64,000 nt of DNA from Candidatus Omnitrophota bacterium. Lineage in GTDB: Bacteria; Omnitrophota; Gorgyraeia; Zapsychrales; Fredricksoniimonadaceae. The translations under genes and the position numbers were made by a program. The stretch's first letter is position 1. Every line of letters starts with the position of its first letter. The notes beneath the pieces are model-generated. The model was given only the letters and a program-made list of their open reading frames with translations. It was not told the origin of the DNA and ran no database searches. The stretch spans positions 24,196-88,195 of the forward strand of contig JAUSEK010000004.1 in NCBI GenBank assembly GCA_030650275.1, in the 5' to 3' direction. Positions 59,287 through 60,750 of the stretch are shown here, piece by piece.

Positions 59287-60750
59287 TTAAAATACATCAG
59301 CCGTAAAGGTATATAAAGACACGCTACGGTCTTTCCAGCAATCAGCTGAAAGCTCCGCTTTCTCGGAACACAGCCGCGATAAGAACTGTTCCTTATTCCC
59401 GATCTCCGCGGCCACCTGCGGCAAAAACACGCCCTGACGCCCGGCCCCGTCGCTGACAATGACCCCGTGTTTGCCCAATTCGATCATGGAGGCGTCCTTG
59501 ACCTGTTGCGGCACGGACAGAACAGAGACCTCCACTTCAATGTCTTTTAATTCACCGGGCGTGACAGGCGCAAACCGCGGGTCTTGCGAGGCCGCGGCAA
59601 CGGCCATGTCGCGGACCGTCTGGGACAAAGGTTTTTCCCCGATAAAGATACCGATACAGCCGCGCAATCGCCCGTGTTCTTTAAGGGTCACGAACGCGCC
59701 CTGCACCTGATTGAGCCGCGGGTCTTTTTCATCAAAATCCGGCGCATACCCCGTCCTAACAAATTGCTCAACGGTTTGCCGGGCAATGGCCAATAAACGG
59801 CCTTTCTGGGCCCGGGACAAAGGCGCGGATCCCGGTTTCTTGGAAATGATCGTTGACGAATAACCGACCACCCTGGTCTTGTCCCCTGTCACATCGCCGG
59901 AGTTGGCATACTTTAAAACCTGCGCATCATCCAATCCTCTTAAACGGGCGTATAAAAGCGCGGTCGTCACCGGCACGAAGCCGCACATTTCCATCTGCCC
60001 TGTCAGACAACCCTTGAATAGGGCGGACGCGTCCTCACGGCGCAGGGCTTCGAGCGTGCCGCCATCCATGCGCACGGCAAAATCATAATCGTGATGATGC
60101 GACATGTCAGAGGAGGCGATCACCAGAACATCCTGCCTGGTCCCGATGATCTTGTCCAGGGCCTTGGCCAAACGCTCGCACACGCCAAGATCCGCCTCCG
60201 GCCCGTACGGGCCGTAGGCCCGGAGGGGCTGGCCCATCAGGATCGGGACGATCTTCACTCCGGAAAACGTGCTCTGGATGAACGGCAATTGCACTTCCAG
60301 GGCGTGCTCCTGCTCAAATACTTCCGGCAAGAACCGAAATGCGGCGTCTTCTTTGATCAGCGCTTGGGCAAAGGGCTCATCCACATCCACGACGCCCAGC
60401 GGGGTCTTGAAACCGCCCTGCGGCCATACTGAAACACCTTCAAAGGGAAAAAAGTGGCTGGGGGCCAGAATAACGATAGTGGAATATTGATCGCGGGCCA
60501 CGGCGTTGTAGCCGTAAGCCGCCACCCCGCCGGAATACGCGTAACCGGCGTGGGGGACGATCAGGACCTGGACCTTACGGTCGTCGGGGACCGGGCCTGT
60601 TTTACTTTTAAGGGCGGTGATGTCCGTGAACAGCTGCCCAGGGTCGGCGCTGTAAAACTGTCCGGCCACGTTAGGGGATTTGGTCGTGGACGCGGCCTGG
60701 GCCGGGACGGCCAGCATCCAAGCTAAATAAAAAAAGATGAAAAAACGCAT
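59287..60750 (-). CDS. Sec-signal-peptide fusion of Memo-like (AmmeMemoRadiSam protein B) and AMMECR1 (protein A) domains
   Basis: Signal MRFFIFFYLAWMLAVPAQA|AS; Memo motifs GQFYSADPGQL, VPHAGYAYSG, SSDMSHHH; AMMECR1 motif GRLRGCIGIF; ORF-track start 60837 is over-extended into doxX. Confidence 0.75.
   Translation of the reverse strand: MRFFIFFYLAWMLAVPAQAASTTKSPNVAGQFYSADPGQLFTDITALKSKTGPVPDDRKVQVLIVPHAGYAYSGGVAAYGYNAVARDQYSTIVILAPSHFFPFEGVSVWPQGGFKTPLGVVDVDEPFAQALIKEDAAFRFLPEVFEQEHALEVQLPFIQSTFSGVKIVPILMGQPLRAYGPYGPEADLGVCERLAKALDKIIGTRQDVLVIASSDMSHHHDYDFAVRMDGGTLEALRREDASALFKGCLTGQMEMCGFVPVTTALLYARLRGLDDAQVLKYANSGDVTGDKTRVVGYSSTIISKKPGSAPLSRAQKGRLLAIARQTVEQFVRTGYAPDFDEKDPRLNQVQGAFVTLKEHGRLRGCIGIFIGEKPLSQTVRDMAVAAASQDPRFAPVTPGELKDIEVEVSVLSVPQQVKDASMIELGKHGVIVSDGAGRQGVFLPQVAAEIGNKEQFLSRLCSEKAELSADCWKDRSVSLYTFTADVF

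What the first reader, a model, noticed from the sequence alone, without database searches (positions are those of the whole stretch)
59287..60750. Sec-signal-bearing Memo–AMMECR1 fusion lacking a radical-SAM partner
AmmeMemoRadiSam systems are normally three separate cytoplasmic proteins: AMMECR1, a Memo-like protein and a radical SAM enzyme. Here Memo (VPHAGYAYSG, SSDMSHHH) and AMMECR1 (GRLRGCIGIF) are fused in one 487-aa polypeptide. A textbook signal peptide (MRFFIFFYLAWMLAVPAQA|AS) precedes it. No radical-SAM gene is in the window. The neighbours are thiol-redox and membrane proteins instead. This argues for an exported, repurposed AmmeMemo module.
Basis: partly seen in the sequence, partly recalled or inferred. 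Interest (0 to 1): 0.7.

Follow-up and report, generated by a model that had tools for sequence, protein, structure and literature searches.

The report
Exported Memo–AMMECR1 fusion in Omnitrophota
The gene encodes a secreted two-domain Memo–AMMECR1 protein that belongs to a large, uncharacterised group of exported versions of these enzymes, so it is less exceptional than it looked, but the group itself shows that this enigmatic enzyme system often works outside the cytoplasm.

Summary
Window 59287-60750 (minus strand) encodes a 487-aa protein with a Sec-type signal peptide, a Memo domain and an AMMECR1 domain. Both catalytic motifs are intact. There is no radical SAM gene in the 64-kb window or in 5.7 kb beyond it.

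Signal-peptide or lipoprotein Memo–AMMECR1 fusions are common: 93 of 119 close homologues and 106 of 147 diverse cluster representatives look exported. In about half of the metagenomic loci with enough flanking DNA, the exported fusion lies beside the AmmeMemoRadiSam radical SAM gene. That gene often carries a Tat-like or hydrophobic N-terminal signal of its own. A signal peptide is therefore no evidence that the radical SAM partner was lost.

The window gene belongs to one Omnitrophota subclade with a conserved order: DsbA-like, MauE (a DsbB analogue), fusion, 150-aa unknown, HTTM/DCC1, RodA. Its sister Omnitrophota clade keeps radical SAM, fusion, DsbD_2.

I could not test whether this genome encodes a radical SAM partner elsewhere. 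My best reading is a periplasmic metalloenzyme acting on an envelope substrate and co-expressed with the disulfide-forming machinery. I rate it a new variant of a known kind, of moderate interest.

The parts
59287..60750 (-). Gene for the 487-aa Memo–AMMECR1 fusion precursor; the stop codon is 59287-59289
   Evidence: ORF and translation. Pfam and NCBIfam domains. Identical to NCBI protein MDO8674704.1 from a Candidatus Omnitrophota MAG.
60694..60750 (-). Signal peptide, aa 1-19: n-region MR, h-region FFIFFYLAWMLAV, c-region PAQA, with predicted SPase I cleavage AQA|AS
   Evidence: Read directly from the sequence. It lies N-terminal to the Memo profile match, which begins at aa 26. An equivalent hydrophobic N-terminus occurs in 93 of 119 close homologues. 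The internal Met12 is not conserved in the 86%-identical L002 copy.
59851..60675 (-). Memo (LigB/PCAD-like) domain, aa 26-300, with invariant H67, H99, D215, H218 and C256
   Evidence: Pfam PF01875, E 8e-59. Foldseek match to MEMO1 3bcz/7kq8, target TM 0.80-0.82. H67 and H99 align with the MEMO1 'PHAGY' and 'PSHH' histidines. Residue invariance in alignments A1 and A2.
59290..59790 (-). AMMECR1 domain, aa 321-487, with invariant R363-G364-C365-x-G367
   Evidence: Pfam PF01871, E 3e-52. PDB sequence hits 1zq7 (E 7e-28) and 1vaj (E 7e-24). Foldseek match to 1vaj, target TM 0.79. Invariance.
60753..61193 (-). MauE/DoxX-family membrane protein with four TM segments and a C99-G-C101 motif; immediately upstream and translationally coupled
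   Evidence: Pfam MauE, E 4e-20. TM segments and Cys positions. Conserved directly upstream of the fusion in L001, L002, L004, L006, L007, L010 and L020. MauE replaces DsbB through a CXC site (bioRxiv 10.64898/2026.03.05.709764).
61190..61801 (-). Membrane-anchored DsbA-like thioredoxin with a CPAC motif at aa 57-60
   Evidence: Pfam Thioredoxin_4 (E 1e-22) and DSBA (E 2e-19). N-terminal TM segment at aa 6-24. It overlaps the MauE start by 4 nt. Conserved in related loci.
58798..59250 (-). 150-aa protein of unknown family: an N-terminal TM helix followed by an alpha/beta domain; 36 nt downstream of the fusion
57549..58811 (-). Multi-TM protein (HTTM-like in homologues) fused to a DCC1-like thiol-disulfide oxidoreductase domain
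   Evidence: Pfam DCC1-like, E 2e-17. HTTM plus DCC1 are recorded for the orthologues in L005-L007. The start at 58811 was chosen from the 14-nt overlap seen in the orthologues.

Best explanation
The gene encodes a Sec-exported, periplasmic two-domain enzyme. The N-terminal Memo domain keeps the His/His/(Asp/His)/Cys metal site of MEMO1. The C-terminal AMMECR1 domain keeps the invariant LRGCIG cysteine.

It is an ordinary member of a very large clade of exported or lipoprotein Memo–AMMECR1 fusions that belong to the AmmeMemoRadiSam family. In that clade the ancestral arrangement is radical SAM gene next to fusion. In one Omnitrophota subclade ('type B', which includes this window) the fusion gene has been separated from the radical SAM gene. 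There it sits in an envelope-biogenesis operon directly behind the DsbA-like/MauE disulfide-forming pair and ahead of p150, HTTM/DCC1 and RodA.

The protein most likely acts in the periplasm on an envelope- or membrane-associated substrate, not on nucleic acid. It is co-expressed with the oxidative-folding machinery. That machinery either folds it or recycles its cysteines.

Shown: the domain identity, the intact motifs, the signal-like N-terminus and its conservation, the gene order and its conservation, and the local absence of a radical SAM gene. Inferred: actual export and cleavage, the periplasmic substrate, any functional coupling to DsbA/MauE, and the existence of a radical SAM partner elsewhere in the genome. 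I consider a partner elsewhere more likely than not, on two grounds: the family models were defined, as I recall, from genome-wide co-occurrence of the three genes, and Omnitrophota commonly encode the radical SAM enzyme.
For: Domains and family scores. Two-domain fold at pLDDT 91.7, matching MEMO1 and AMMECR1 structures. H67, H99, D215, H218, C256, R363, G364, C365 and G367 are invariant or more than 90% conserved across 41 close and 66 diverse homologues. The signal peptide has proper n/h/c regions and an AxA site, and lies outside the Memo profile. SP-like N-termini occur in 93 of 119 close homologues and 106 of 147 cluster representatives, 34 of the latter with lipobox-like motifs. The ATG is 2 nt after the MauE stop, and gene gaps along the array are 4, -4, 2, 36, -14 and -4 nt, with no intergenic terminator. 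The order DsbA–MauE–fusion–p150–HTTM/DCC1 is conserved down to 48% identity and survives a change of the upstream flank in L007. PilMNO and a secretin in the window imply an outer membrane and therefore a periplasm. MauE has been shown to substitute for DsbB. In the NJ tree, type B is one clade, sister to Omnitrophota rSAM–fusion–DsbD_2 loci and nested within rSAM-linked fusions. All organism names given among the best 120 homologues of an Omnitrophota radical SAM enzyme are Omnitrophota.
Against: No SignalP-type predictor and no experiment were available. The export call rests on heuristics and conservation. No radical SAM gene was found in any type-B locus (about 185 kb examined in all). No accession prefix or contig length links type-B fusions to any listed radical SAM protein (lists). 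The protein may therefore work without one. Long-range synteny in this phylum, from ppk and GH57/GH77 to RodA and the pilus genes, means that adjacency to DsbA/MauE could be inherited order without functional meaning. The biochemical activity of Memo and of AMMECR1 is unknown, so any substrate statement is inference.
Confidence: 0.6

Rival explanations
1. It is an exported AmmeMemo module that has lost its radical SAM partner and been repurposed. It would now work with the thiol-redox neighbours: DsbA-like/MauE as oxidant or activator, and HTTM/DCC1 downstream.
For: No radical SAM gene lies in the window, in 5.7 kb upstream, or within +-10 kb in five related loci. The DsbA–MauE–fusion triad is tightly coupled and conserved across the whole type-B clade. 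The sister clade instead pairs the fusion with a different membrane thiol-redox protein, DsbD_2, so a thiol-redox membrane partner recurs. No shared contig or accession series connects type-B fusions to the listed radical SAM proteins.
Against: Absence was shown only locally. Unlinked partners are common: about 10 non-Omnitrophota signal-bearing fusions also lack a radical SAM gene within 3 kb. DsbA/MauE is described as a general disulfide-forming pathway. Every residue conserved in rSAM-linked fusions is also conserved here, so nothing marks a change of function.
Confidence: 0.25
2. The protein is not exported. Either the true start is downstream, or the hydrophobic N-terminus is an uncleaved anchor that leaves the domains in the cytoplasm, where they would work with a cytoplasmic radical SAM enzyme as in the classical system.
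For: There is no Shine-Dalgarno sequence before the ATG. Gene callers start some homologues at internal Met residues. Seven of the 37 radical SAM neighbours of signal-bearing fusions have no export signal.
Against: The only internal Met near the start (M12) lies inside the hydrophobic core and is Thr in the 86%-identical L002 copy. The hydrophobic N-terminus is conserved in length and character, though not in sequence, across hundreds of homologues. It has small residues at -3 and -1, or a lipobox, as real signal peptides do. The h-region is 13 residues long, too short for my 19-residue TM criterion. A positively charged N-terminus predicts N-in/C-out topology.
Confidence: 0.07
3. Adjacency to DsbA/MauE and HTTM/DCC1 is inherited synteny with no functional link. 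The protein is simply one more envelope protein encoded in a housekeeping stretch.
For: The same long gene order, from GH57/GH77 to RodA and the pilus ATPases, recurs in L004-L006. Unrelated large secreted-protein genes are tolerated between MauE and the fusion in L005 and L009.
Against: The triad persists where the upstream flank differs (L007). Start/stop coupling of 2 nt or a 4-nt overlap is maintained.
Confidence: 0.08

Closest known systems
AmmeMemoRadiSam system (NCBIfam TIGR04335 protein A, TIGR04336 protein B, TIGR04337 radical SAM enzyme)
   Same: Both domains score well above the curated cut-offs of the A and B models. NCBI and JGI already name these proteins accordingly. Close and distant relatives sit next to TIGR04337 genes.
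   Different: A and B are fused in the order B then A. The protein carries a Sec signal peptide. No TIGR04337 gene lies within the window or within +-10 kb in relatives. The neighbours are DsbA-like, MauE and HTTM/DCC1.
Human MEMO1 (PDB 3BCZ, 7KQ8 iron-bound, 7L5C copper-bound)
   Same: The fold is the same (target TM 0.80-0.82). The 'PHAGY' and 'PSH' histidines align, and the conserved Cys of the metal site is retained (C256).
   Different: Sequence identity is about 22%. MEMO1 is cytosolic, stands alone, and has no AMMECR1 fusion or signal peptide.
Archaeal AMMECR1 proteins (PH0010 1VAJ, MM0484 1ZQ7)
   Same: 36-38% identity, the same fold, and the LRGCIG motif.
   Different: They are stand-alone cytoplasmic proteins. 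As of 2019 they were still listed among top-priority uncharacterised archaeal families (PMC6393860).
DsbA–MauE oxidative folding pathway (bioRxiv 10.64898/2026.03.05.709764)
   Same: The two genes immediately upstream are a CxxC thioredoxin-fold protein with a membrane anchor and a 4-TM MauE with a CXC motif. Both are features the paper reports for MauE-based disulfide formation.
   Different: The paper does not mention Omnitrophota, gene neighbourhoods or Memo/AMMECR1. A specific client relationship with the fusion is my inference.
Omnitrophota 'type A' loci (L088, L090: rSAM – fusion – DsbD_2)
   Same: The fusion has the same architecture and a signal peptide. Identity to the window protein is about 45%. 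These loci form the sister clade in the tree, and a membrane thiol-redox protein is again adjacent.
   Different: They keep the radical SAM gene immediately upstream, with a hydrophobic N-terminus. They have DsbD_2 in place of DsbA/MauE, and they lack p150 and HTTM/DCC1.

Membership tests
AmmeMemoRadiSam system | A Memo-like protein B that scores above the TIGR04336 cut-off | tested here: met
   252.9 bits against a cut-off of 26, over aa 25-301.
AmmeMemoRadiSam system | An AMMECR1-like protein A that scores above the TIGR04335 cut-off | tested here: met
   179.5 bits against a cut-off of 99, over aa 318-487.
AmmeMemoRadiSam system | A TIGR04337 radical SAM enzyme encoded next to A and B | tested here: not met
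   No CxxxCxxC ORF and no TIGR04337 homologue in the 64-kb window. None in 5.7 kb upstream. None within +-10 kb in L004-L007 or L009, nor in L010's shorter flanks.
AmmeMemoRadiSam system | A TIGR04337 radical SAM enzyme encoded anywhere in the same genome | not testable with these tools
   The whole MAG cannot be searched. Comparisons of accessions and contig lengths found no link but have little power.
Memo / LigB-type (PCAD–Memo) superfamily | The fold and the conserved His/His/Cys metal-site residues | tested here: met
   Foldseek target TM 0.81 to 3bcz, with weaker matches to LigB-type dioxygenases. H67 and H99 align to MEMO1. H67, H99, D215 and H218 are invariant and C256 is at least 90% conserved. 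The equivalence of C256 to MEMO1 Cys244 rests on motif position, not on a residue-level structural alignment.
AMMECR1 family | The fold and the LRGCIG cysteine motif | tested here: met
   PDB hits 1zq7 and 1vaj. Target TM 0.79 to 1vaj. R363, G364, C365 and G367 are invariant.
Sec (SPase I) signal peptide | A positive n-region, a 7-15 residue h-region, small residues at -3 and -1, a position outside the mature domain, and conservation in orthologues | tested here: met
   MR / FFIFFYLAWMLAV / PAQA|A. The Memo profile starts at aa 26. 93 of 119 homologues are SP-like by my heuristic. No dedicated predictor was available.
Sec (SPase I) signal peptide | Actual export and cleavage | not testable with these tools
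   This needs reporter fusions or N-terminal proteomics.
DsbA–MauE disulfide-forming pair (the neighbours) | A thioredoxin-fold CxxC protein facing the periplasm, together with a 4-TM MauE carrying a CXC motif | tested here: met
   CPAC at aa 57-60 behind an N-terminal TM anchor. MauE Pfam E 4e-20, four TM segments, C99-G-C101.

The most novel reading that the evidence does not exclude
In many bacteria the whole AmmeMemoRadiSam system works outside the cytoplasm. That would include its radical SAM enzyme, exported by Tat or anchored by an N-terminal helix. It would often be accompanied by a multi-TM spermidine-synthase-like protein and a Tat-signal DUF362 protein. This would amount to a periplasmic radical SAM pathway acting on an envelope substrate.

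The Omnitrophota type-B clade that includes this window would then be a derivative. In it the radical SAM step has been dropped, and the exported Memo–AMMECR1 enzyme is driven instead by the quinone-linked DsbA/MauE thiol oxidation relay.
Probability: 0.15. Interest if true: 0.8.

Novelty: new variant of a known kind. Interest (0 to 1): 0.5.

Why it matters
Memo and AMMECR1 are ancient families that also occur in humans. From my own knowledge, MEMO1 has been linked to cell motility and metal handling, and AMMECR1 to the X-linked AMME contiguous-gene syndrome. Their biochemical activities remain unknown.

A large bacterial clade in which both domains, and often the partner radical SAM enzyme, carry export signals narrows the search. 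For that clade, nucleic-acid modification is excluded, and the substrate should be an envelope, membrane or periplasmic molecule.

The clade also offers tractable tests: whether the signals direct export, what metal the protein binds, and whether its cysteines are redox-coupled to DsbA/MauE. If the Tat-signal radical SAM enzymes really are periplasmic, that raises a further question of how SAM and low-potential electrons reach them.

Tried and rejected
- **Same-genome link to a radical SAM gene.** I compared NCBI accessions of five type-B fusions (MDO8674704, MBI3602030, MBF0571006, MDE2027066, MBF0511137) with those of ten Omnitrophota radical SAM proteins. I also compared the 'longest contig' lengths in the lists. 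Neither gave a match. The contig-length method itself works: at least 25 lengths are shared between the fusion list and the p150 list. The result is still inconclusive, because only the best 120 radical SAM hits are visible.
- **Key paper not available.** The main comparative paper on Memo–AMMECR1 systems (Burroughs et al. 2019, PMC6664185) is not held. I could not check whether it mentions exported forms. What I say about it comes from memory of its abstract.
- **Literature searches.** Searches for AmmeMemoRadiSam, for AMMECR1 with Memo, and for 'periplasmic radical SAM' found nothing relevant.
- **Promoter and terminator scan.** Counts were near chance, and every site lay inside a coding region.
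- **Pfam TAT_signal.** The model gave only sub-threshold hits on the radical SAM neighbours. The Tat call therefore rests on the S/T-R-R-x-F-L-K motif followed by a hydrophobic region.
- **Syntenic empty site.** I looked in the window for the type-A flanking genes (RsmE, MiaB-like, RecA, DsbD_2). None is present.
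Full report
**Observation.** The feature is real and lies at the stated coordinates, on the minus strand. The ORF runs from an ATG at 60750 to a stop at 59287-59289 and encodes 487 aa. Pfam finds Memo at aa 26-300 (E 8e-59) and AMMECR1 at aa 321-487 (E 3e-52). NCBIfam places the two halves in AmmeMemoRadiSam protein B (TIGR04336, 252.9 bits against a cut-off of 26) and protein A (TIGR04335, 179.5 against 99). An AlphaFold2 model built on 41 homologues has mean pLDDT 91.7. It matches human MEMO1 (3bcz, target TM 0.81) and the AMMECR1 protein PH0010 (1vaj, target TM 0.79). 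The residues expected to matter are invariant or nearly so in 41 close and 66 diverse homologues. In Memo these are H67, H99, D215, H218 and C256; H67 and H99 align with the MEMO1 'PHAGY' and 'PSH' histidines. In AMMECR1 they are R363-G364-C365-x-G367. This is an intact two-domain enzyme, not a decayed remnant.

**Start codon and signal peptide.** The longest ORF starts at a TTG at 60837, but that extension overlaps the upstream gene. The ATG at 60750 lies 2 nt after the upstream stop and gives exactly the protein deposited by NCBI for an Omnitrophota MAG (MDO8674704.1). Residues 1-19 have the anatomy of a Sec signal peptide: n-region MR, a 13-residue h-region FFIFFYLAWMLAV, and c-region PAQA with Ala at -3 and -1. 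They lie outside the Memo profile, which starts at aa 26. The one internal Met (M12) is a Thr in the 86%-identical copy in L002, so a downstream start is unlikely. By a simple hydrophobicity and motif heuristic, 93 of 119 close homologues have an equivalent N-terminus, typically MKRIILLLMVLMAFSTQSWG|D, and eight of these have a lipobox. Most of the remaining homologues are gene calls that begin at an internal Met. The window also encodes PilM, PilN, PilO and a secretin. The organism therefore has an outer membrane, and an exported protein would reach a periplasm. No dedicated predictor and no experiment were available, so export itself is an inference.

**Local context.** On the minus strand the genes run as follows:
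- GH57/DUF3536 (cut by the window end; complete in L001)
- GH77
- DsbA-like thioredoxin (N-terminal anchor, CPAC motif)
- MauE (four TM segments, C99-G-C101)
- the fusion
- a 150-aa protein of no known family ('p150')
- a multi-TM protein with a DCC1-like thiol-disulfide oxidoreductase domain (HTTM plus DCC1 in the orthologues)
- RodA
- a type IV pilus-like cluster

The gaps between GH77 and RodA are 4, -4, 2, 36, -14 and -4 nt. No intergenic promoter-like or terminator-like site stands out. No ORF in the window has a radical SAM cluster motif in a plausible gene, and none is homologous to a TIGR04337 enzyme. The 5.7 kb upstream of the fusion gene in L001, about 2.5 kb of it beyond the window end, holds GH57 and one further gene. 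A 2026 preprint shows that MauE proteins replace DsbB in E. coli through a CXC motif, and proposes MauE as a general disulfide-forming protein. The two upstream genes therefore look like a DsbA/DsbB-type oxidative folding pair.

**Close relatives ('type B').** The order DsbA-like, MauE, fusion, p150, HTTM/DCC1, RodA recurs in Omnitrophota contigs down to 48% identity (L002, L004-L007, L009, L010, L020).
- In L007 the upstream flank is different (PEPCK). A block of mobile-element genes separates the fusion from p150 and HTTM/DCC1, yet DsbA, MauE and the fusion stay together.
- In L005 and L009 a large secreted protein has been inserted between MauE and the fusion.
- None of these loci has a radical SAM gene in the DNA held, which reaches 10 kb on each side where the contig allows.
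- p150 has 643 homologues. The best 120 listed have no Pfam hit, and the only organism names given are Omnitrophota. It shares at least 25 contigs with the fusion list. Its model has no significant fold match.

**The wider family changes the picture.** A full HMMER scan of 1.84 billion cluster representatives found 2437 clusters at E <= 1e-30. The best 150 are almost all Memo–AMMECR1 fusions of 450-540 aa. Of 147 full-length ones, 106 have a signal-like N-terminus, 34 with a lipobox-like motif. I then fetched 80 metagenomic loci and annotated them with phmmer seeds.
- Of 36 signal-bearing fusions with at least 1.3 kb of flank on each side, 19 lie within 3 kb of a radical SAM gene. That gene is usually immediately upstream on the same strand.
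- The six radical SAM genes tested, including three from these 80 loci, are true TIGR04337 members (355-387 bits against a cut-off of 220).
- About 20 of 37 of the radical SAM proteins begin with an S/T-R-R-x-F-L-K motif followed by a hydrophobic stretch, which is Tat-like. Eight have a plain hydrophobic N-terminus, and seven have none. Pfam's short TAT_signal model gives only sub-threshold support.
- About 24 loci also carry a 700-830 aa multi-TM protein with a spermidine-synthase domain next to the fusion. About nine carry a Tat-signal DUF362 protein.

Exported fusions are therefore the common state in this part of the family, and export does not go with loss of the radical SAM partner.

**Omnitrophota have two arrangements.** A search with an Omnitrophota radical SAM enzyme returned 120 close homologues, and every organism name given is Omnitrophota. 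In two such genomes the order is radical SAM (hydrophobic N-terminus), fusion (signal peptide), DsbD_2-type membrane protein, RsmE, MiaB-like, RecA ('type A'; L088, L090). A neighbour-joining tree of 76 fusions puts all type-B sequences in one clade. That clade is sister to type A and nested among rSAM-linked fusions. Type B is thus a derived state. The gene either moved away from the radical SAM gene, or it is a paralogue that arose within the phylum. In both Omnitrophota types a membrane thiol-redox protein sits next to the exported fusion.

**What could not be settled.** I could not determine whether the window's genome has a TIGR04337 gene elsewhere. Comparisons of accession series and contig lengths between type-B fusions and the visible radical SAM hits gave no match, but they have little power. 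The type-A flanking genes are not in the window, so there is no 'empty site' to inspect.

**Most likely mechanism.** I read the protein as a periplasmic metalloenzyme. It would use the Memo metal site and the AMMECR1 cysteine on an envelope- or membrane-associated substrate. It is co-transcribed and translationally coupled with the DsbA/MauE pair, which either folds it or recycles its cysteines.
- Shown: the domains, motifs, fold, signal-like N-terminus, gene order and its conservation, and the local absence of a radical SAM gene.
- Inferred: export, the class of substrate, the coupling to DsbA/MauE, and a radical SAM partner elsewhere in the genome. I think a partner elsewhere is more likely than not, because the family models were defined, as I recall, from genome-wide co-occurrence of the three genes, and Omnitrophota commonly encode the enzyme.

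Two minor rivals are that the protein is not exported (0.07), and that the adjacency is mere inherited synteny (0.08).

**Comparison with what is known, and verdict.** The protein passes the membership tests for AmmeMemoRadiSam proteins A and B, for the Memo and AMMECR1 folds and motifs, and for a Sec signal peptide by heuristic. It fails the test of an adjacent radical SAM gene. The genome-wide test could not be run. The function of the system is unknown; AMMECR1 was still listed as a top-priority uncharacterised family in 2019. I found no paper in the searchable library that describes exported forms or Tat-signal radical SAM partners. I rate the window gene as a new variant of a known kind: exported, fused, unlinked from the radical SAM gene, and linked to DsbA/MauE. 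The gene itself is an ordinary member of a widespread Omnitrophota family that pipelines already name. The family-level pattern is what a specialist would find surprising. Interest: 0.5.

Noticed in passing
L049 8710-9876, L025 117-1355, L045 8600-9871, L086 3549-4790, L075 717-1976 (and about 15 more loci): AmmeMemoRadiSam radical SAM enzymes (TIGR04337) encoded next to exported fusions begin with Tat-like signals (S/T-R-R-x-F-L-K plus a hydrophobic stretch) in about 20 of 37 cases. This implies export of a folded Fe-S radical SAM enzyme. I found no description of this in the searchable literature.
   Followed up: partly
L090 6001-7101; L088 6001-7098; L011 1638-2747; L012 2589-3728: Omnitrophota 'type A' loci have the order radical SAM enzyme (hydrophobic Sec/TM-like N-terminus), signal-peptide fusion, DsbD_2-type membrane protein. 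The fusion is about 45% identical to the window protein, and these loci form its sister clade.
   Followed up: partly
L045 11394-13787 (-), L042 12688-14934 (+), L086 6314-8455 (+), L049 12114-14573 (-): A 700-830 aa multi-TM protein with a spermidine/spermine-synthase domain lies next to the exported fusion in about 24 of 80 metagenomic loci. It may be a further conserved partner of the system.
   Followed up: partly
L045 7547-8581, L049 7651-8688, L025 5392-6408, L031 4036-5076: A protein of about 345 aa with a Tat-like signal and a DUF362 domain recurs beside the radical SAM gene in about nine loci.
   Followed up: partly
window 58798-59250 (-): This 150-aa protein (N-terminal TM helix plus an alpha/beta domain) has 643 homologues. 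The best 120 have no Pfam family, and the only organism names given are Omnitrophota. It is more conserved (61-90% identity) than the fusion. It always lies just upstream of the HTTM/DCC1 gene and overlaps its start. It has no significant fold match.
   Followed up: yes
L005 8066-9934; L009 6713-9904: A large secreted protein (622 aa and about 1000 aa) with conserved N- and C-terminal parts and a variable middle is inserted between MauE and the fusion in two relatives.
   Followed up: no
L007 8567-15967: A block of small genes that includes Bro-N, Gp49 and DUF3892 domains, apparently a mobile or prophage remnant, separates the fusion from p150 and HTTM/DCC1 in one relative.
   Followed up: no
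window 60190-60225 (aa 176-187 of the fusion): A lineage-specific insertion (about LRAYGPYGPEA) in the Memo domain is shared only by the closest relatives. It is modelled as a low-confidence loop (pLDDT below 50 at aa 181-184).
   Followed up: no
window 40352-43930 (-): A 1192-aa ORF with no Pfam match lies between the RNase E/G gene and other housekeeping genes.
   Followed up: no
window 45644-56417 (-): A type IV pilus-like cluster: two T2SSE ATPases, each preceded by a small stand-alone MshEN-domain protein, then T2SSF, a pilin-like gene, PilM, PilN, PilO and a secretin. The same cluster follows RodA in the related loci.
   Followed up: partly
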